Origin: Candidatus Woesearchaeota archaeon
Lineage (GTDB): Archaea > Nanobdellota > Nanobdellia > Woesearchaeales > JAHWHD01
Assembly: GCA_019323515.1 (NCBI GenBank)
Contig: JAHWHG010000004.1
Span: 1,859 to 65,858, forward strand
Direction of reading: 5' to 3'
DNA: 64,000 bases
Part shown: one piece after another, positions 1 to 55,614 of the stretch
Numbering within the stretch: the first letter of the stretch is position 1
How the letters are laid out: every line of letters begins with the position of its first letter
Made by a program: the position numbers and the translations under genes
The notes under the pieces: model-generated
Seen by the model: the letters and a program-made list of their open reading frames with translations, nothing else
Databases searched by the model: none
Told to the model about the DNA's origin: nothing

Positions 1-1545
1 GGAGCAATGACGATTGCTTCAGAAACCACTGCAGGAAATCCAGGTATAAGATTAGCTACTGGTTTATCTAATGAGAATTACTGGGACATGTATACATTTG
101 GAACTATAGCAAATAAAGGTTTGTTTATCAGATACAATGGCGATGACAAAATACAAATAACAAAAGAAGGGAATGTTGGAATAGGCATTACTAGCCCATG
201 GGTAAATAACGCAACACAAAAGCTTCATGTAGAAGGTAATGCAAATATTACTGGAGATCTTTCAGTAATAGGCAACATTACAATAGGCACTGGCACAATC
301 TTACTTGATGGTCAAAGGTCAAATATTGAACTATCTCCAGTGGATCCTGTAAAGATTGGAGAGGCGTTACTAAACAGTACAGCGTTGGAGGTTTTTGTTG
401 CAGGAAAATATGCATATGTTGGAACTTCAAATTCAAGTAAAGATGTTGAAATTTTTGATATTAGCAATCCTACAGATATTTCTATTGTAGGTTATGCAGA
501 CTTAACGAATAGTGTAAATGGTATTTATGTATTAAATAAGTACATGTACACTATTAGCAATGATCTTGGAGGGGATGATTTTGAGATATTTGATATCTCA
601 AATAAAAGCAATCCTGTAAAAGTGGCTGGTGTTGAGCTTGGTGCTAATGGTGATGAAATCTATGTTTCAGGGAGATATGCATATATTGGAACTGATGGAA
701 GTAATGAATTTAAGATATATGATATATCTGACCCAACAAACCCTGAACTGATAGGAACCGCAAATCCCGGAGATAATGTTAGAGGGCTTTATATCTCAGG
801 GAAGTATGCTTTTATTGGTTTTCAGGCTGGTGGGTCAACATTGATAAAGATATATGATATTTCAGACCCTACAAACCCTAAGCAAGTAGAATCCAACAAT
901 CAAGCATCTGGTACTGTAATTAATATGTATGTATCAGGCAATTATCTTTACACAATAAGTAGCTATAGTTCAAATAATTTACAGGTATGGGATATCTCAG
1001 ATATATCAAATATTGTGAATATTGGTAATGCAACAGCTGCAGATAATGCATATGGATTAGATGTGGCTGGGAAGTATGCTTATGTAACCAGTGGTTCAAC
1101 TGGGGATGATCTTGAGGTGTTTGACATCTCAGACCCTACAAATCCTACAAAAGTTGGAGGGGTTGAATTTGGAGGGAGTTCATATTCACAAACTATCAAA
1201 GTTGTAGGGAAATATGCATACATAGGGAATACATTGACAGGAGAATTAATGACATATGATATATCTGGTTCAGATTTACCAGCAGCAACTATTGGAACTG
1301 TCTCTGCAACAACTGCAGATGTATCTAATAATATGCATGTAGGGAATGATTTAGTTGTAGATAATGCACTTATTGTAGGCCAAGGTTTAATGGTTGATGG
1401 ACCAGCTTCATTAGGTATAAATGCTAGTTTAGTTGTTGATGAAGCTGGATTGATGAATTTAACCGGGAATCTCCATGTAGAAGGATGTATCAAATACAAT
1501 TGCTCACAGCCAACTGGATGTGTAACTTTAGGTGTTTGTATCTAA
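1..1545 (+). CDS. LVIVD-repeat beta-propeller surface protein (probably 5'-partial)
   Basis: ORF 7..1545 is in frame with nt 1-6 and has no upstream stop. About 9 iterations of GKYAY(V/I)G...(L/F)E(I/V)(F/Y)DISDPTNP match the LVIVD-repeat signature. The C-terminal tail is Cys-rich (GCIKYNCSQPTGCVTLGVCI). Confidence 0.75.
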   Translation, partial: GAMTIASETTAGNPGIRLATGLSNENYWDMYTFGTIANKGLFIRYNGDDKIQITKEGNVGIGITSPWVNNATQKLHVEGNANITGDLSVIGNITIGTGTILLDGQRSNIELSPVDPVKIGEALLNSTALEVFVAGKYAYVGTSNSSKDVEIFDISNPTDISIVGYADLTNSVNGIYVLNKYMYTISNDLGGDDFEIFDISNKSNPVKVAGVELGANGDEIYVSGRYAYIGTDGSNEFKIYDISDPTNPELIGTANPGDNVRGLYISGKYAFIGFQAGGSTLIKIYDISDPTNPKQVESNNQASGTVINMYVSGNYLYTISSYSSNNLQVWDISDISNIVNIGNATAADNAYGLDVAGKYAYVTSGSTGDDLEVFDISDPTNPTKVGGVEFGGSSYSQTIKVVGKYAYIGNTLTGELMTYDISGSDLPAATIGTVSATTADVSNNMHVGNDLVVDNALIVGQGLMVDGPASLGINASLVVDEAGLMNLTGNLHVEGCIKYNCSQPTGCVTLGVCI

Positions 1546-12345: not shown

Positions 12346-12996
12346 ATGGATAAATCTGAAGTATTAAAAACAATTGAACAAGTAAAGAAGGATTCTAAAA
12401 AACGTAACTTTAAACAGAGTTATGATTTGATTATAACATTGAAGAACCTGGACCTGAAAAAGCCAGAACATACACCTGATTTCTTTCAAGAGCTGCACTT
12501 TGATATCGGGAAAAAGAAGAAGATTGCTGCTTTAGTAGGTGCTGAGCTTAAAGATGAGGCTTCAAAGGTTTGTGATTTGGTTATAATTGATGATGATTTC
12601 CCAGGGTATGACAAGAAGAAACAGAAAGCTATTGCAAAGGATTATGATTATTTCATTGCCCAGGCTAATATGATGGGTAAGGTAGCTACAACATTCGGTA
12701 AAGTGTTAGGTCCAAGAGGGAAGATGCCGAACCCAAAGGCAGGGTGTGTTGTACCGCCAAAAGCAAGCCTTAAACCTTTATATGATAAATTACAAAGATT
12801 GAGCAGGATCAGTGTGAAGAAAGCGCAGATGATGCAGATGATAGTAGGCAAGGAAGATATGAAGGATGAGGAGGTTGCTGATAATATAATCACAGTTTAC
12901 AATGGATTAATACATCACCTGCCTAATGAAGTTAACAATGTCAAAGCTGTAATGCTGAAGCTTACAATGGGTAAGCCTGTTGAGATTAAAAAATGA
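12346..12996 (+). CDS. rpl1: 50S ribosomal protein L1 (uL1)
   Basis: NFKQSYDLIITLKNLDLKKPE...GKVLGPRGKMPNPKAG is the uL1 signature. It is the first gene of the conserved L1-L10-L12 operon. Confidence 0.92.
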   Translation: MDKSEVLKTIEQVKKDSKKRNFKQSYDLIITLKNLDLKKPEHTPDFFQELHFDIGKKKKIAALVGAELKDEASKVCDLVIIDDDFPGYDKKKQKAIAKDYDYFIAQANMMGKVATTFGKVLGPRGKMPNPKAGCVVPPKASLKPLYDKLQRLSRISVKKAQMMQMIVGKEDMKDEEVADNIITVYNGLIHHLPNEVNNVKAVMLKLTMGKPVEIKK

Positions 12997-51834: not shown

Positions 51835-51931
51835 ATGCCTCTGTAGCATAGGTAGGAACTGAATTCCTCGGTTCAAAAGGAAATACGACTCCTAGTTGCA
51901 AGCAACCGGAGTCCCATAAATAAAAACCAAT
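51835..51931 (+). other. duplicated tRNA-Thr 5' fragment (17 nt) plus hairpin element GACTCC-TA-GTTGC..GCAAC-C-GGAGTC
   Basis: ATGCCTCTGTAGCATAG at 51835-51851 is identical to 51930-51946 (the start of tRNA-Thr). It is followed by the hairpin GGAA/TTCC (51855-51867) and the conserved hairpin at 51887-51913. No T-arm or 3' acceptor follows. Confidence 0.7.
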
Positions 51932-52027
51932 GCCTCTGTAGCATAGTAGCTATTGCGATGGCCTTGTATGCGTTATAATAACGTAGAAGTAAGCCATAGG
52001 TCGGGGGTGCAAATCCCCCCAGAGGCT
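51932..52027 (+). tRNA. tRNA-Thr(UGU) with 23-nt canonical (37/38) intron
   Basis: Acceptor GCCTCTG/CAGAGGC; anticodon stem ATGGC/GCCAT; loop CTTGTA|intron 51969-51991|A; T-arm GGGGG-TGCAAAT-CCCCC; discriminator T. The D-loop lacks GG and the T-loop reads TGC rather than TTC, which is unusual. Confidence 0.75.
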
Positions 52028-53121: not shown

Positions 53122-54058
53122 TTGCGTACGAACCTTTTGGAAGCGAGAAAGTAAGAAGTTGTTTGAACATTCCTTTGTTTAATTCGTCCAAGTCAGTTTT
53201 GATTTCCAAATCTTTAATCTCAGTAAAAGCTTTTCTTTTATCTCCTTCTGCAGAAAGCTCTGGTATCTGAGGGATTATAAAGTCGCGGAGTGTAATTATC
53301 TCAGAATCCATAAAATTTTTTATTATATTATCAACAACACTATCGCCAAGTTCAGTTCCAAAACCTAATATAGGAATAAATTCCACCTTATGGTTGTCCT
53401 TCAAGCATTTTTCCAGGGTCTTGTTCCATATATAAGATTGGTATGAATGAACATACATGCGCAGGATTTTAATGTTAATCTTTCTTAAAGCGCCAACAAA
53501 GTCGTTAGGTTTATGGGTTATATGGTCAAGAACCTTGGATTCTTGGTCTCCAGTATTTTCAAGAATAAGTTCAACTGCTTTTTTGAAATATTTCTTGATT
53601 ATAGCTTTTCCAATCTCTGCATTGTTCCTACTGAAGCGCTGCTGTCCAAAGTAGTTAGGTATCTTTGGGACATGCTCGACTAACTGATTCTTTTCAAGGT
53701 TTCTTACAATGATAATAAATTGATTTCCAATCAAGTCACCAAGGGATAGTGGAGTATCGCCGTATCCATAAAAGTTCAACTCGATATCCTTTAAAGTTAT
53801 ATTAGCTATCTTTTCTTTAGAAACTGATTTTTTAATTGAAATAAGTTGCTCTGTTACAGCTGATTTATCCTTAGTGCCTGCAAAGCCAATTGATTTTGAG
53901 TTGATTTTTAACTTGGAGGCTAATGTTTCAATTGCTCGTAAAGTGGTGTAATTCTTCTTCTTAAGCCAGATATACGTGTAACTGCCTGAATCTTTAGGCT
54001 TGAGATTAGTTATTTCCTTTACTATAAAATCCTCTGGATGCTGCTTAATCTTGTACAT
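53084..54058 (-). CDS. truD: tRNA pseudouridine synthase D (TruD/Pus7 family)
   Basis: KQHPEDFIVKEI, then FAGTKDKSAVTEQ (catalytic Asp motif GxKDxxAxTxQ), then NYFGQQRF. Confidence 0.88.
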   Translation of the reverse strand: MYKIKQHPEDFIVKEITNLKPKDSGSYTYIWLKKKNYTTLRAIETLASKLKINSKSIGFAGTKDKSAVTEQLISIKKSVSKEKIANITLKDIELNFYGYGDTPLSLGDLIGNQFIIIVRNLEKNQLVEHVPKIPNYFGQQRFSRNNAEIGKAIIKKYFKKAVELILENTGDQESKVLDHITHKPNDFVGALRKINIKILRMYVHSYQSYIWNKTLEKCLKDNHKVEFIPILGFGTELGDSVVDNIIKNFMDSEIITLRDFIIPQIPELSAEGDKRKAFTEIKDLEIKTDLDELNKGMFKQLLTFSLPKGSYATTVIEELYKSED

Positions 54059-54076
54059 AATCTTTAAAAATAAGGC

Positions 54077-54091
54077 AAAAATATATAAAAA
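54077..54091 (+). promoter_or_regulatory. TATA-box-like element upstream of the tRNA-Arg locus
   Basis: AAAATATATAAAAA is centred about 30 nt upstream of 54115, the first GCGCCTG. The second GCGCCTG copy at 54251 has no comparably spaced box. Confidence 0.4.
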
Positions 54092-54108
54092 TGACTCAAA
54101 TTAAGAGC

Positions 54109-54244
54109 AAATATGCGCCTGTAGCGCAGCCATGGGAAATGGTTACGCTCATTTCATTAAGTTCGTAAACACGAACTTAAATTCGCAACTTTTGCGAATT
54201 TAGCAAGATACGACTCCTAGTCGCTTTGCGACCGGAGTCCTATA
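54109..54244 (+). repeat. first copy of a 136-nt tandem unit: tRNA-Arg 5' exon (GCGCCTGTAGCGCAG) plus three-hairpin intron-like RNA
   Basis: A 21-nt identity AAATATGCGCCTGTAGCGCAG links 54109-54129 and 54245-54265. The hairpins are TTAAGTTCG/CGAACTTAA (54157-54180), AATTCGCAA/TTGCGAATT (54180-54200) and GACTCC..GGAGTC (54212-54239). Each has a structural counterpart in the second unit. Confidence 0.75.
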
Positions 54245-54250
54245 AAATAT

Positions 54251-54521
54251 GCGCCTGTAGCGCAGTCTGGTAACTGGTTACGCTCGGTTAACTAAGTTTG
54301 CTAAGGCAAACTTAAATTCGTTGGTTAAGCGAATTTAGCAAAAGGCGACTCCTAGTCTACGACCGGAGTCCCCTGCGGAGAGGTGTAACGGTTGGGCAAA
54401 TAGCGCGACAGCCTCCTACGCTGATGATGAGCTCTGGAGTAGTACTTTGCTTTGCAAAGTAGAAAGAGAGTTAGCAGAAGCAGAAAGCTGTAGGTCGGGG
54501 GTTCGAATCCCCTCAGGCGCG
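54251..54521 (+). tRNA. tRNA-Arg(CCU) with a long non-canonical intron in the D-loop region and a second about 67-nt intron at or near the anticodon loop (exact splice sites unresolved)
   Basis: 5' GCGCCTG-TA-GCGC-AG...(about 130 nt)...AAATA-GCGC-G-ACAGC-CTCCTA...(about 67 nt)...A-GCTGT-AGGTC-GGGGG-TTCGAAT-CCCCT-CAGGCGC-G. The acceptor, D, anticodon and T stems all pair, and the anticodon CCT lies at 54412-54414. Confidence 0.65.
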
Positions 54522-54528
54522 TTTTTTT
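54522..54528 (+). terminator. oligo-T terminator after tRNA-Arg
   Basis: TTTTTTT lies immediately after the discriminator base. Confidence 0.5.
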
Positions 54529-54531
54529 AAA

Positions 54532-55614
54532 ATGATAAATTATCGGCAATTAAAAGAGGGTTGGAGAATTCTATTAAGAGGTATAAGCAGAGGGCATTAT
54601 AAGAAGTATAAAGGTAATGCAAAGGAAATTTGTCAGCAGATTGTTAAAGACTGTTGGAATGGAAAATATTTTCAAACAAGTCTTGGACATTTCAGCCAGT
54701 TCTATGTAAGGGATTTCAGTTATTGTGTTGAGGGTTTACTGAAAGCTGGCTATAGGGAAGAAGTCAAGAAAACTCTGGAATATGCTCTAAGGATTTTTAA
54801 GAGAGAAGACAGGATTACAACTACAATAACTCCAGATGGTAAGACTGTGAACATATTCAGGTATACGCCTGAATCAGTTGCGCTTATGACAAGAGATCTT
54901 AGAGTGCTTAATGACAAAGCATTGATAAAAAGGTATAAAGCATTTATTGAGAAAGAGGTACATAAAGCCTATGAGTATGCTTTTGATAAGGAAAAAGGTT
55001 TACTGAAGAAGGATATTGAGTTTAGTTCAATAAAGGATGGTGCTAAAAGAAGAAGTTCATGTTATAACAATTGTATGATTGCAATGCTGAGCAATGAACT
55101 GAACAAACTTAAGTTTTATAATCCATTTGATCATTATGATCTTAAAAGAAACATAAAAGAAAATTTTTGGAACGGTAGATACTTTATTGATGACCTAAGC
55201 GGTGTTAATTATGTTGCAGGTGATGCAATTACCTTTGCGTTCTGGACTGGAGTGTTTGATTCAAAGAATATGTTTAGAAGTTGCCTTGGAGCAATAAAGA
55301 GAGATGGACTTGACAAACCATGGCCGCTTAAATATACCAAAAATAGACTGAAGTATCATATCATACAAGAGATTTTTACTCCAAATTATGAAGGGAATAC
55401 TTTATGGATGCATTTAGGAGCATGTTTTCTTAAAGTTGTAAAGAAATATGATAAAAAGGCTTTTAAAGAATACATTACTAAGTATACTAAAGTTATTGAG
55501 AAGAATAAGAATTACATGGAGCTTTTTCATCCGAATGGAAAAAGGTATAAAACATTGTTTTATAAAGCTGATGAAGGGATGTTGTGGGCTGCTATGTACT
55601 TAGAACTGGGGTGA
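54532..55614 (+). CDS. hypothetical protein, possibly (alpha/alpha)6 glycoside-hydrolase-like
   Basis: 360-aa ORF. GHFSQFYVRDFSYCVEGLL resembles the GDE_C/six-hairpin motif. The functional call is weak. Confidence 0.4.
   Translation: MINYRQLKEGWRILLRGISRGHYKKYKGNAKEICQQIVKDCWNGKYFQTSLGHFSQFYVRDFSYCVEGLLKAGYREEVKKTLEYALRIFKREDRITTTITPDGKTVNIFRYTPESVALMTRDLRVLNDKALIKRYKAFIEKEVHKAYEYAFDKEKGLLKKDIEFSSIKDGAKRRSSCYNNCMIAMLSNELNKLKFYNPFDHYDLKRNIKENFWNGRYFIDDLSGVNYVAGDAITFAFWTGVFDSKNMFRSCLGAIKRDGLDKPWPLKYTKNRLKYHIIQEIFTPNYEGNTLWMHLGACFLKVVKKYDKKAFKEYITKYTKVIEKNKNYMELFHPNGKRYKTLFYKADEGMLWAAMYLELG

What the first reader, a model, noticed from the sequence alone, without database searches (positions are those of the whole stretch)
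54109..54521. tRNA-Arg(CCU) locus with tandemly duplicated 5' exon plus structured intron unit and at least two introns
The only 3' half (D-stem 3' strand GCGC, anticodon arm ACAGC-CTCCTA..A-GCTGT, T-arm, CAGGCGC-G) lies at about 54394-54521. The matching 5' acceptor/D-stem strand GCGCCTGTAGCGCAG occurs twice, at 54115 and 54251, as part of a 136-nt tandem unit with 21 nt identical at the start.

The rest of the unit has diverged in sequence but keeps three hairpins with compensatory changes: TTAAGTTCG/CGAACTTAA versus TAAGTTTGC/GCAAACTTA, and AATTCGCAA/TTGCGAATT versus AATTCG/CGAATT. Only the first copy has a well-spaced TATA box (54077-54091).

The mature tRNA therefore needs removal of a 130-nt or larger D-loop-region intron, or about 266 nt if the first exon copy is used, plus an about 67-nt intron near the anticodon loop flanked by a GCTG direct repeat. 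Conservation of structure despite sequence drift suggests the intron RNA itself is functional or mobile.
Basis: partly seen in the sequence, partly recalled or inferred. Interest (0 to 1): 0.65.

Follow-up and report, generated by a model that had tools for sequence, protein, structure and literature searches.

The report
Fragmented tRNA-Arg gene, recurrent hairpin intron
This is a real arginine tRNA gene of a tiny DPANN archaeon that is broken by two introns and preceded by a decoy copy of its own start, and its large intron belongs to a previously undescribed, apparently mobile family of hairpin-bearing elements that invade tRNA and other stable-RNA genes in these archaea.

Summary
Joining 54251-54270, 54400-54418 and 54486-54521 gives a clean 75-nt tRNA-Arg(CCU), collinear with four orthologues. 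Intron 1 (54271-54399, 129 nt) lies in the D-loop at 19/20. Intron 2 (54419-54485, 67 nt) lies at the canonical 37/38 site. Upstream (54109-54244) is a 136-nt tandem copy: 21/21 nt identical over leader plus tRNA nt 1-15, then 75% identical with compensatory hairpin changes. Three independent assemblies reproduce it.

New here: both units, and a third unit upstream of tRNA-Thr(UGU) at 51835-51931, carry the hairpin CGACUCCUAGU-(stem-loop)-ACCGGAGUCC. This motif marks about 120 loci, nearly all in Woesearchaeota/Nanoarchaeia MAGs. It occurs as a sense intron in D-, anticodon- and T-loops with splice-site helices that fit. It also occurs beside intact tRNA or SRP RNA genes, flanked by a 17-49-nt direct repeat of the gene end, always in one polarity. 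Some copies are intergenic.

I read it as a low-copy mobile element. It survives as a BHB intron where it can be spliced, and otherwise next to a regenerated gene end. Unit 1 is most likely unspliced 5' leader, not an alternative exon. The insertion mechanism and the hairpin's function remain inferred.

The parts
54079..54092 (+). A/T-rich TATA-like box, presumed promoter of the whole locus
   Evidence: Sequence reading. It lies 23-36 nt upstream of tRNA nt 1 of the first copy. No transcript data are available.
54109..54129 (+). Upstream partial copy: 6-nt leader AAATAT plus tRNA nt 1-15
   Evidence: 21/21 identical to 54245-54265.
54130..54244 (+). Unit-1 element: altered D-loop tail and P1 hairpin (54128-54144), two extra hairpins (54157-54180, 54178-54202), an A-rich linker, and the conserved motif with its 3-bp clamp (54208-54243)
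   Evidence: Fold z = -6.6. Covariance model R1 scores 54.9 bits at 54199-54246. 75% identical to unit 2, with compensatory changes.
54251..54270 (+). Exon 1 (tRNA nt 1-19)
   Evidence: In-silico splicing gives tRNA-Arg(CCT).
54271..54399 (+). Intron 1 in the D-loop (19/20), 129 nt: P1 54272-54289, hairpins 54292-54314 and 54314-54336, motif 54343-54374, and a 3' segment 54380-54399 that closes the splice-site helix
   Evidence: R1 scores 56.3 bits at 54334-54377. The fold pairs UAACUG.GUUACGC with GGUGUAACGGUUG. The helix GUCU/GGGC was also found by the targeted scan. Boundary fixed by the intron-less orthologue L129.
54400..54418 (+). Exon 2 (A20 to A37, including anticodon CCU)
54419..54485 (+). 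Intron 2 at the canonical 37/38 site, 67 nt, with an inner hairpin UACUUUGC/GCAAAGUA
   Evidence: The splice motif is relaxed: CUCC against GCAG pairs at 3 of 4 positions.
54486..54521 (+). Exon 3 (nt 38 to discriminator G)
54522..54528 (+). T7 run, presumed terminator
   Evidence: Sequence reading.
51835..51931 (+). Third family member: a copy of the first 15 nt of tRNA-Thr plus 2 leader nt (51835-51851), a P1 hairpin, the motif (51883-51917) and a spacer
   Evidence: 17-nt direct repeat. Motif hit. R1 scores 54.5 bits. Fold z = -3.4.
51932..52027 (+). Intact tRNA-Thr(UGU) with a 23-nt canonical intron
   Evidence: Rfam tRNA at 55.8 bits. ARAGORN with intron search.

Best explanation
**Shown**
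- 54251-54521 is a working, fragmented tRNA-Arg(CCU) gene of a Woesearchaeota archaeon.
- It has three exons, a 129-nt intron in the D-loop and a 67-nt intron at 37/38.
- The D-loop intron is one copy of a conserved element built as: a variable P1 hairpin, an A-rich linker, then a clamp (3 bp, C.C mismatch, GACUCC/GGAGUC, UA/C internal loop, variable distal hairpin).

**Inferred: expression**
- The locus is transcribed from the single well-placed A/T box at 54079-54092.
- The primary transcript therefore starts with unit 1. RNase P removes it as a long structured 5' leader.
- The splicing endonuclease and RtcB-type ligase remove the two introns.

**Inferred: origin**
- The element is a low-copy, non-autonomous mobile element that acts at the DNA level.
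- It targets conserved loop words of stable-RNA genes: the D-loop, and TTCRAA in the T-loop.
- Sense copies whose 3' end can pair with the exon form a bulge-helix-bulge motif and persist as introns.
- Copies that cannot be spliced persist only where the cut-off gene end was regenerated on the motif side of the element. These are antisense copies, or copies lacking the 3' pairing segment.
- That regeneration leaves a partial gene copy on the P1 side. Unit 1 and the tRNA-Thr unit are arrangements of this kind.
For: **Gene structure**
- In-silico splicing gives a 75-nt tRNA-Arg(CCT), collinear with L129, L127, L102 and L021.
- L102/L005 is orthologous by synteny: TruD 52% identical, downstream protein 45%.
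- The intron-less D-loop of L129 reads AGTCTGGATA.

**A conserved family**
- Three motif hits in the window against 0 expected.
- 45 DPANN loci in species-representative genomes, up to 6 per MAG.
- 76 metagenome loci.
- No hit in viral contigs.

**Structure is conserved**
- The three clamp pairs are Watson-Crick in 88-91 of 93 copies, with GC/UA/AU swaps.
- The distal stem has 347 Watson-Crick pairs, 5 G-U and 1 A-C.
- 92 double-change cells against 28 expected; 0 of 500 shuffles reach this.
- The outer stem co-varies in L098 (GGCUCC/GGAGCC) and L110 (GACUUC/GAAGUC).

**It behaves as an intron**
- 23 T-loop copies have the T-stem plus a perfect 4-bp TTCR/YGAA helix at 59/60. 7 D-loop copies have GYCU/RGGY.
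- tRNA-His (L030) and tRNA-Gly (L048, L069) carry it at 37/38 with perfect helices.

**Direct repeats and polarity**
- Flanking repeats are bimodal: about 24 of 90 copies have z >= 8, the rest have none.
- The partial copy is always on the P1 side (reading).
- The same arrangement occurs at an SRP RNA 3' end.
- The same P1 subtypes occur in all contexts.

**Unit 1 derives from unit 2**
- Both share two extra hairpins that the orthologues lack.

**Target word on both strands**
- Antisense partial copies end after ATTYGAAC. Sense T-loop introns start after TTCRAA.
Against: - There is no transcript, splice-junction or circular-RNA evidence.
- No transposase, integrase or reverse transcriptase is linked to the element.
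- No filled-versus-empty allele pair was found, so mobility rests on distribution alone.
- Copy number per genome is low for a transposon.
- The repeats vary in length (11-49 nt) and no known insertion mechanism predicts that.
- The partial copies stay 100% identical to the gene while the element drifts (21/21 against 75%). In L008/L017 the partial copy follows its own gene at nt 9. This hints at a function, or at gene conversion, which the model does not explain.
- L082 breaks the polarity rule.
- Intron 2 has only a relaxed splice motif.
- The motif set was collected with an exact pattern, so conservation of the outer stem is partly by construction.
Confidence: 0.6

Rival explanations
1. Alternative 5' exon. 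Both copies of the 5' exon are used, so the locus yields two tRNA-Arg(CCU) isodecoders that differ in the D-loop (AGUCUGG versus AGCCAUGG). Splicing would run from either copy to the single 3' splice site.
For: - Both copies are 100% identical over nt 1-15 plus 6 leader nt, despite 25% divergence in the rest.
- A product using unit 1 is still called tRNA-Arg by ARAGORN.
- Unit 1 keeps GGUUAC, which can pair with GUAAC at 54385-54389.
Against: - The 4 nt that must pair with GGGC are CCAU in unit 1, which gives at most one G-U pair out of four; unit 2 has GUCU.
- The same one-base change in the D-loop tail (CCRYGG) occurs in the upstream copies of L008, L017 and L101.
- In the tRNA-Thr locus and most other such loci, the downstream tRNA has no D-loop intron, so there is no acceptor site.
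- Antisense arrangements cannot be exons.
Confidence: 0.1
2. Integrase footprints. The partial tRNA copies are attL/attR repeats left by site-specific integration of a plasmid or virus into tRNA genes. The hairpin element would be the remnant or arm site of that integrating element.
For: - Direct repeats of a tRNA end flanking inserted DNA are the classic signature of archaeal integrative elements.
- Sugahara et al. 2012 (PMC3293823) describe a 5' tRNA fragment plus intron gain linked to a 1.8-kb recombinase element.
Against: - The inserted DNA is only about 70-140 nt and has no ORF.
- The same core sits inside tRNAs as introns without repeats.
- Repeat length and sequence differ at each target, including SRP RNA.
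- There are no hits in 2.9 million viral contigs.
- Compensatory evolution shows the structure is maintained.
Confidence: 0.08
3. Host-selected functional RNA module. The hairpin is kept because the excised intron or the leader does a job. Examples: a stable circular RNA that binds a protein through a sarcin-ricin-like UAGU/ACC internal loop, or a processing chaperone for the pre-tRNA. Its spread would reflect selection rather than selfish mobility.
For: - Motif strands stay identical in orthologous D-loop introns of genomes whose TruD is only 52% identical, while the rest of the intron diverges.
- The model is strand-specific: 54-56 bits against 7 bits.
- All intron copies are sense.
- Copy number per genome is low.
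- 16 of 16 nt match the two strands of the E. coli 23S H95 stem.
Against: - Orthologues manage without it. L129 has no D-loop intron, and L127 has a motif-less one.
- Other introns of the same build carry unrelated hairpins.
- Antisense copies next to tRNA 3' ends would place the reverse complement in the tRNA transcript.
- This rival does not exclude mobility.
Confidence: 0.2
4. Decaying pseudogene. The locus is a dead tRNA gene disrupted by repeats, and the functional tRNA-Arg(CCU) lies elsewhere.
For: ARAGORN and Rfam at its gathering score do not report a tRNA here. The only Rfam match is a 16-bit, chance-level one at a permissive E-value.
Against: - The three exons give a perfect cloverleaf with no mismatch in the acceptor, D and anticodon stems and a single G-U pair in the T stem.
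- It is collinear with four orthologues, including A20.
- It sits in the syntenic position next to TruD.
- Splice-site helices are intact.
- A T-run terminator is present.
Confidence: 0.03

Closest known systems
Transposed tRNA introns of Thermoproteales (Fujishima et al. 2010, as summarised in PMC4033280)
   Same: Similar intron sequences occur in different tRNA species and at non-canonical positions. A splicing endonuclease removes them at BHB-type motifs. This is read as intron gain by transposition.
   Different: - The lineage is different: DPANN Woesearchaeota/Nanoarchaeia.
- The introns are much longer (about 80-145 nt) and have a strongly conserved structured core.
- The same core also lies outside genes, flanked by partial gene duplications in both orientations.
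- It also occurs at SRP RNA, in an rRNA spacer and in intergenic DNA.
Caldiarchaeum subterraneum tRNA-Thr(GGU) disruption model (Sugahara et al. 2012, PMC3293823)
   Same: A 5' fragment of a tRNA lies upstream of an intron-bearing copy of the same tRNA, with inserted DNA between them. The authors propose this as a route to intron gain and gene splitting.
   Different: There the insert is a 1.8-kb element with a recombinase gene. Here it is a 70-140-nt non-coding hairpin element, recurrent at more than 20 loci with a fixed polarity.
Integrase att duplications at tRNA genes (SSV- and pNOB8-type archaeal elements; from my own knowledge)
   Same: A direct repeat of a tRNA gene end leaves one intact gene and one partial copy.
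   Different: There is no integrase and no kb-sized cargo. Repeat length varies. The core also occurs as an intron.
tRNA-Trp intron encoding a box C/D sRNA in Euryarchaeota (from my own knowledge)
   Same: A long, structured tRNA intron that carries a conserved RNA module.
   Different: No C/D boxes pair up here. Intron 2 has UGAUGA but no D box, and Rfam finds nothing. The module function is unknown.
MITEs, REP elements and IS200/IS605-derived palindromic elements
   Same: Short, non-coding, hairpin-forming repeats scattered in a genome. The hairpin is imperfect, with a mismatch and a bulge, like the sites bound by HUH transposases.
   Different: There are no terminal inverted repeats and no fixed target duplication. 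The two hairpins are unlike each other. There is a strong bias to stable-RNA genes. No linked transposase is known.

Membership tests
Archaeal BHB (endonuclease-spliced) tRNA intron | Removing the insert restores a canonical tRNA | tested here: met
   A 75-nt tRNA-Arg(CCT) results, collinear with four orthologues.
Archaeal BHB (endonuclease-spliced) tRNA intron | A 4-bp central helix between the exon-1 end and the intron 3' end, with cut sites 2 nt beyond on each strand, plus flanking helices | tested here: met
   Intron 1 has GUCU/GGGC (2 G-C, 2 G-U), bulges GG|U and AA|A, and inner helices AACU/GGUU and GUUAC/GUAAC. The outer helix (the D-stem) is offset by A14 / U20a-A21, so this is the relaxed HBh' type. 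The same build occurs in L005, L021, L034, L053, L057 and L078.
Archaeal BHB (endonuclease-spliced) tRNA intron | The same motif for intron 2 (37/38) | tested here: inconclusive
   CUCC against GCAG pairs at 3 of 4 positions (C34.C mismatch). The anticodon stem is intact and the 3' bulge is AA|A. Orthologues L021 and L129 have the same 3-of-4 pattern, while L102 and L127 have a perfect CUCC/GGAG.
Archaeal BHB (endonuclease-spliced) tRNA intron | Cleavage by the splicing endonuclease and ligation by RtcB | not testable with these tools
   No enzyme assay or RNA data are available. PMC5829648 reports DPANN endonucleases with an extra loop, associated with disrupted tRNA genes.
Transposed or mobile tRNA intron family | Homologous intron sequence in different tRNA species and at different positions | tested here: met
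   The same core occurs in the D-loop (Arg, Ile and others), at 37/38 (His, Gly, Glu) and in the T-loop or T-arm of many tRNAs.
Transposed or mobile tRNA intron family | Presence/absence polymorphism at orthologous sites | tested here: met
   The tRNA-Arg(CCU) next to TruD varies: no D-loop intron in L129, a motif-less one in L127, motif-bearing ones in the window, L102 and L021. The T-loop intron is present only in L102 and L021. These genomes are distant (TruD at most 57% identical), so loss is as possible as gain.
Integrase-mediated integrative element | An integrase gene or kb-scale cargo between the att repeats, or attP on a virus or plasmid | tested here: not met
   70-140 nt between the repeats with no ORF. 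0 hits in viral contigs.
MITE | Terminal inverted repeats and a target duplication of fixed length | tested here: not met
   The ends are not inverted repeats. Repeats are absent in about 70% of copies and span 11-49 nt in the rest.
Any Rfam family (ribozymes, C/D sRNA and others) | A match to a curated covariance model | tested here: not met
   No relevant match at E <= 10 over 53900-54700.
Sarcin-ricin / bulged-G (S-turn) module | UAGUA / GAAC (or GACC) internal loop with a sheared A.G pair next to a closing pair | tested here: inconclusive
   The motif has UAGU/ACC and the stem CUCC/GGAG, identical to E. coli H95. It lacks the A.G pair and the GAGA loop. The host's own H95 has a different stem. 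There is no 3D evidence.

The most novel reading that the evidence does not exclude
The hairpin element is a new kind of non-autonomous mobile element of DPANN archaea that homes to the conserved loop sequences of stable-RNA genes on either DNA strand. Spliceable insertions become BHB introns. Unspliceable ones force a polar duplication of the gene end. The family would then show, caught in the act, how continuous tRNA genes turn into multi-intron, fragment-bearing and eventually split tRNA genes.
Probability: 0.35. Interest if true: 0.85.

Novelty: new variant of a known kind. Interest (0 to 1): 0.68.

Why it matters
How archaeal tRNA genes acquire introns at odd positions, and how they become split, is a long-standing open question. 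So far it has been argued mainly from Thermoproteales intron similarities and one Caldiarchaeum locus.

This family offers about 120 dated-by-divergence examples in one clade:
- The same recognisable core occurs as an intron at three tRNA positions.
- It occurs as a leader or trailer next to regenerated gene ends.
- It occurs at SRP RNA and in an rRNA spacer.

This makes the question testable in three ways: by a census of complete genomes, by metatranscriptomics for junctions and circles, and by biochemistry with the lineage's endonuclease.

It also has a practical side. Standard tRNA finders miss these genes, so DPANN genomes may be wrongly scored as lacking tRNAs. The 2026 Nanobdellota preprint 10.64898/2026.05.13.725050 notes order-specific missing tRNAs.

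Tried and rejected
- **General BHB finder.** A scan requiring a 4/4 central helix and at least 3/4 flanking helices fired at 96% of random places, so I dropped it. Targeted T-loop and D-loop versions were usable, with 7% and 14% false positives.\n- **Brute-force deletion scan with ARAGORN.** It was too permissive to classify contexts. I classified contexts by reading the flanks instead.\n- **Extra copies in the window.** A covariance-model search with filters off found none. The weak hits at 12756, 27552 and 9312 lie in coding sequence and are chance.\n- **Close relatives for a filled/empty comparison.** The window's TruD matches only identical contigs, and the next best is 57% identical. The downstream protein is not on record.\n- **Strand test by G-U versus A-C counts.** Too few non-Watson-Crick pairs to decide: 5 against 1 in the distal stem, 2 against 3 in the clamp.\n- **Motifs considered and rejected.**\n - Box C/D sRNA in intron 2: no D box.\n - K-turn: no tandem G.A pairs.\n - H/ACA guide RNA: no pseudouridylation pocket and no ACA box.\n - Hammerhead and other ribozymes: no conserved core, and no Rfam hit.\n - CRISPR-like array, TnpB/IscB guide RNA and IS110 bridge RNA: the architectures do not fit a duplicated target in cis.\n - Casposon-like insertion: no terminal inverted repeats, and the duplication length is not fixed.\n- **Literature.** Searches by topic and by the motif sequence found no description of this family.
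Full report
**1. What is in the sequence**

The region 54109-54528 reads as follows:
- AAATAT plus GCGCCTGTAGCGCAG;
- about 115 nt of hairpins;
- the same 21-mer again;
- about 130 nt of related hairpins;
- then TAGCGCG ACAGC CTCCTA ... AGCTGT AGGTC GGGGG TTCGAAT CCCCT CAGGCGC G TTTTTTT.

The repeat finder confirms two exact 21-mers 136 nt apart, followed by a 90-nt stretch that is 77% identical. A global alignment gives 21/21 over the 21-mer and 83/111 (75%) over the rest. ARAGORN and Rfam's gathering threshold see no tRNA here. A permissive Rfam scan finds nothing relevant.

Joining 54251-54270, 54401-54418 and 54486-54521 gives a tRNA-Arg(CCT). Contigs from at least three other sequencing projects that carry the neighbouring TruD gene are identical to the window across 54042-54514. 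The tandem unit is therefore not an assembly artefact.

**2. Gene structure from orthologues**

The flanking genes are TruD (divergent) and a 360-aa protein downstream. They identify L005/L102 as the syntenic locus in another Nanoarchaeota MAG. TruD homologues led to further loci.

| Locus | TruD identity | Introns in tRNA-Arg(CCU) |
|---|---|---|
| L129 | 55% | No D-loop intron (D-loop AGTCTGGATA); one 39-nt canonical intron |
| L127 | 57% | 44-nt motif-less intron at the same D-loop site; one at 29/30; a canonical one |
| L102 | 52% | D-loop, canonical and T-loop introns |
| L021 | not determined | D-loop, canonical and T-loop introns |

All of these splice in silico to collinear 75-nt tRNA-Arg(CCU) sequences.

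This fixes exon 2 of the window at A54400. That base is A20, an arginine identity element by my own knowledge. Intron 1 is therefore 54271-54399 (129 nt). Intron 2 is 54419-54485 (67 nt, position 37/38).

**3. Splice-site competence**

*Intron 1:*
- Exon nt 15-18 (GUCU) pair with GGGC at 54394-54397.
- The bulges are GG|U and AA|A.
- The inner helices AACU/GGUU and GUUAC/GUAAC follow.
- The D-stem is offset by one to two unpaired bases, so the motif is of the relaxed type.
- The same design, with co-varying bases, occurs in L021 (GCCU/GGGC), L005 (GUCU/AGGC), L053, L057, L078 and L034.

*Intron 2:*
- It has an intact anticodon stem and an AA|A bulge.
- The central helix is only 3 of 4 (CUCC against GCAG).
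- L021 and L129 share this imperfection. L102 and L127 have a perfect CUCC/GGAG.

PMC5829648 reports that DPANN endonucleases carry an extra loop associated with disrupted tRNA genes. Cleavage itself is untested.

**4. The unexpected part: a family**

Upstream of the only tRNA that Rfam sees in the window (tRNA-Thr(UGU), 51932-52027, 23-nt canonical intron) lies a third unit. It consists of:
- a 17-nt copy of the tRNA's own start (51835-51851);
- a hairpin;
- the sequence GACTCCTAGT-N-ACCGGAGTC, which is also present in both Arg units (3 hits, 0 expected).

Scanning public collections with CGACTCCTAGT-N(3-16)-ACCGGAGTCC gave these results:

| Collection | Result |
|---|---|
| Species-representative genomes | 46 loci; 45 are DPANN Woesearchaeota/Nanoarchaeia MAGs (a few carry other labels), up to six per MAG |
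| Metagenome contigs | 76 loci |
| Viral contigs | None |

The window's TruD is named as Candidatus Woesearchaeota by NCBI.

**5. Anatomy of the element**

The element is built from:
- a variable P1 hairpin, in several sequence classes and sometimes with extra A4/T4 hairpins nested in it;
- an A-rich linker such as GUAAAAAGC;
- a 3-bp clamp, a C.C mismatch, GACUCC/GGAGUC, a UA/C internal loop, and a 3-5-bp distal hairpin.

Evidence that this structure is maintained:
- The clamp pairs are Watson-Crick in 88-91 of 93 non-redundant copies, with GC, UA and AU alternatives. Pairing stops exactly after 3 bp.
- The distal stem has 347 Watson-Crick pairs, 5 G-U and 1 A-C across at least 15 different stems.
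- On a 60-sequence alignment, all six variable pairs change on both sides: 92 such cells against 28 expected, with 0 of 500 shuffles reaching this. Slid controls collapse.
- Covariance model R1 finds only the three copies in the window (54-56 bits; the reverse strand scores 7 bits).
- R1 finds five diverged copies elsewhere. Two of them carry compensatory changes in the outer stem.
- Other introns of the same build carry unrelated hairpins in place of the motif.

**6. Contexts**

I classified about 90 non-redundant copies by reading the flanks.

| Context | Approximate number |
|---|---|
| T-loop 59/60 (one at 53/54) | 24 |
| D-loop 19/20 | 11 |
| Anticodon loop 37/38 (His, Gly, Glu) | 4 |
| Just outside an intact gene, flanked by a direct repeat of the gene end | 23 |
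| Directly abutting a tRNA end, no repeat | 3 |
| Other places: upstream of ORFs, an rRNA operon spacer (L082), intergenic | 25 |

- All intron-type copies are in the sense orientation.
- A targeted scan confirms a perfect T-stem plus TTCR/YGAA helix in 23 T-loop copies, against a 7% false-positive rate.
- Flanking repeats are bimodal: about 24 of 90 copies have z >= 8, the rest have none.
- Repeat-flanked copies obey a polarity rule. The partial copy lies on the P1 side and the intact gene on the motif side.
- Sense cases duplicate the tRNA 5' end up to G15, or up to nt 26 in one case.
- Antisense cases duplicate the 3' end from the T-arm. One case does this at the SRP RNA 3' end.
- The repeats can extend up to 24 nt into the flank, with more mismatches there than in the RNA-coding part.
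- Antisense partial copies end right after ATTYGAAC, and sense T-loop introns begin right after TTCRAA. The T-arm is palindromic, so both DNA strands offer the same word.
- The same P1 classes occur in every context.

**7. Reading of the window locus**

- Unit 1 shares with unit 2 two inner hairpins that no orthologue has. It therefore arose by local duplication of [leader + exon 1 + intron up to the motif], with a junction GGAGTCC-TAT-AAATAT.
- Several compensatory substitutions have accumulated since, so the duplication is not recent. Yet the 21-mer is intact (0.75^21 is about 0.002).
- Its D-loop tail is changed (AGCCAUGG), which destroys the helix with GGGC. The same kind of one-base change (CCRYGG) is seen in the upstream copies of L008, L017 and L101.
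- The A/T stretch in front of the second copy is only 1-11 nt from it. In other loci of this type, the spacer between motif and gene is 10-30 nt.
- The gene must therefore be transcribed from upstream of the partial copy.
- I infer that unit 1 is a structured 5' leader removed by RNase P, not an alternative exon.

**8. How it most likely works**

*Shown:*
- the gene structure;
- family membership;
- structural conservation;
- the range of positions and orientations;
- the repeats and their polarity.

*Inferred:*
- endonuclease and ligase processing;
- a DNA-level insertion process aimed at conserved loop words;
- persistence of spliceable sense copies as introns;
- rescue of unspliceable insertions by regeneration of the gene end. 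One possible route is repair from an intact chromosome copy or transcript, joined next to the motif.

*Unexplained:*
- the enzyme responsible;
- the variable repeat length;
- the perfect identity of partial copies with their genes. In the paralogues L008 and L017 the partial copy even follows its own gene at nt 9;
- the exception L082;
- what the hairpin binds.

**9. A lead on the hairpin**

The motif strands CUCCUAGU and ACCGGAGU equal the two strands of the E. coli 23S sarcin-ricin helix. The apical ACGAGAGG is replaced by a plain hairpin. Woesearchaeal 23S shares only UAGU...A(A)C. The internal loop could be a truncated bulged-G module, or the match could be chance. I estimate chance at roughly 1% once hairpin self-complementarity is allowed for.

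**10. Comparison and novelty**

The closest precedents are:
- the similar introns spread over many tRNAs in Thermoproteales (Fujishima 2010, via PMC4033280);
- the Caldiarchaeum tRNA-Thr fragment plus intron gain beside a recombinase element (PMC3293823).

Neither shows a conserved structured core, the polar duplications in both orientations, or the spread to SRP RNA and rRNA spacers. Topic and sequence searches of the literature found no description.

I rate this a new variant of a known kind.

Noticed in passing
window 54211-54240, 54346-54371, 51886-51914: The motif strands CUCCUAGU / ACCGGAGU are identical to the two strands of the E. coli 23S rRNA sarcin-ricin helix (H95), with the apical ACGAGAGG replaced by a variable hairpin. 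The Woesearchaeal 23S rRNAs in L082 and L023 share only UAGU...AAC. This may be a truncated bulged-G module.
   Followed up: partly
window 51932-52027: An intact tRNA-Thr(UGU) with a 23-nt canonical intron. ARAGORN misses it in default mode and finds it only with intron search.
   Followed up: yes
window 54240-54250: A TATA-like CTATAAAATAT sits about 24 nt upstream of the first base of intron 1 (54271). If it is active, the element RNA could be transcribed on its own. No evidence either way.
   Followed up: no
window 54059-54100: A 21-nt tandem pair of A/T boxes (AATCTTTAAAAATAAGGCAAA / AATATATAAAAATGACTCAAA) lies in the divergent TruD / tRNA-Arg intergenic region. These are probably the two promoters.
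   Followed up: no
window 54511-54514: All independent Logan contigs carrying TruD stop here, inside the palindromic T-arm GGGGGTTCGAATCCCC. This is probably an assembler break.
   Followed up: partly
L127 about 1230-1330 (minus strand): A box C/D sRNA-like gene (TGATGA ... CTGA with a terminal stem cttcagt/actgaag) lies between TruD and tRNA-Arg. The tRNA-Arg there has three introns, including one at 29/30 in the anticodon stem.
   Followed up: partly
L015 249-401: The element, with a 20-nt direct repeat, abuts the 3' end of an SRP RNA gene (Rfam 129 bits, 390-660 minus strand). The arrangement is therefore not restricted to tRNA genes.
   Followed up: partly
L082 6797-6942: A copy lies in the rRNA operon spacer between a tRNA and the 23S rRNA. 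A 12-nt copy of the tRNA 3' end sits upstream of P1, with the intact tRNA on the same side. This is an exception to the polarity rule.
   Followed up: no
L064, L080, L083, L035 (second introns of the same tRNAs): Introns with the same P1-linker-hairpin build carry other hairpins instead of the conserved motif. Several keep only the base NNN-C-GAC...GUC-C-NNN.
   Followed up: partly
L008 and L017 (same MAG): The paralogous tRNA-Glu(CUC) and tRNA-Glu(UUC) genes each have an upstream partial copy plus element. Each partial copy carries the A9 or G9 variant of its own gene, which points to concerted evolution.
   Followed up: partly
L001: The single non-archaeal hit (Microthrixaceae, GC-rich, inside coding-like sequence) looks like a chance match to the pattern.
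   Followed up: no
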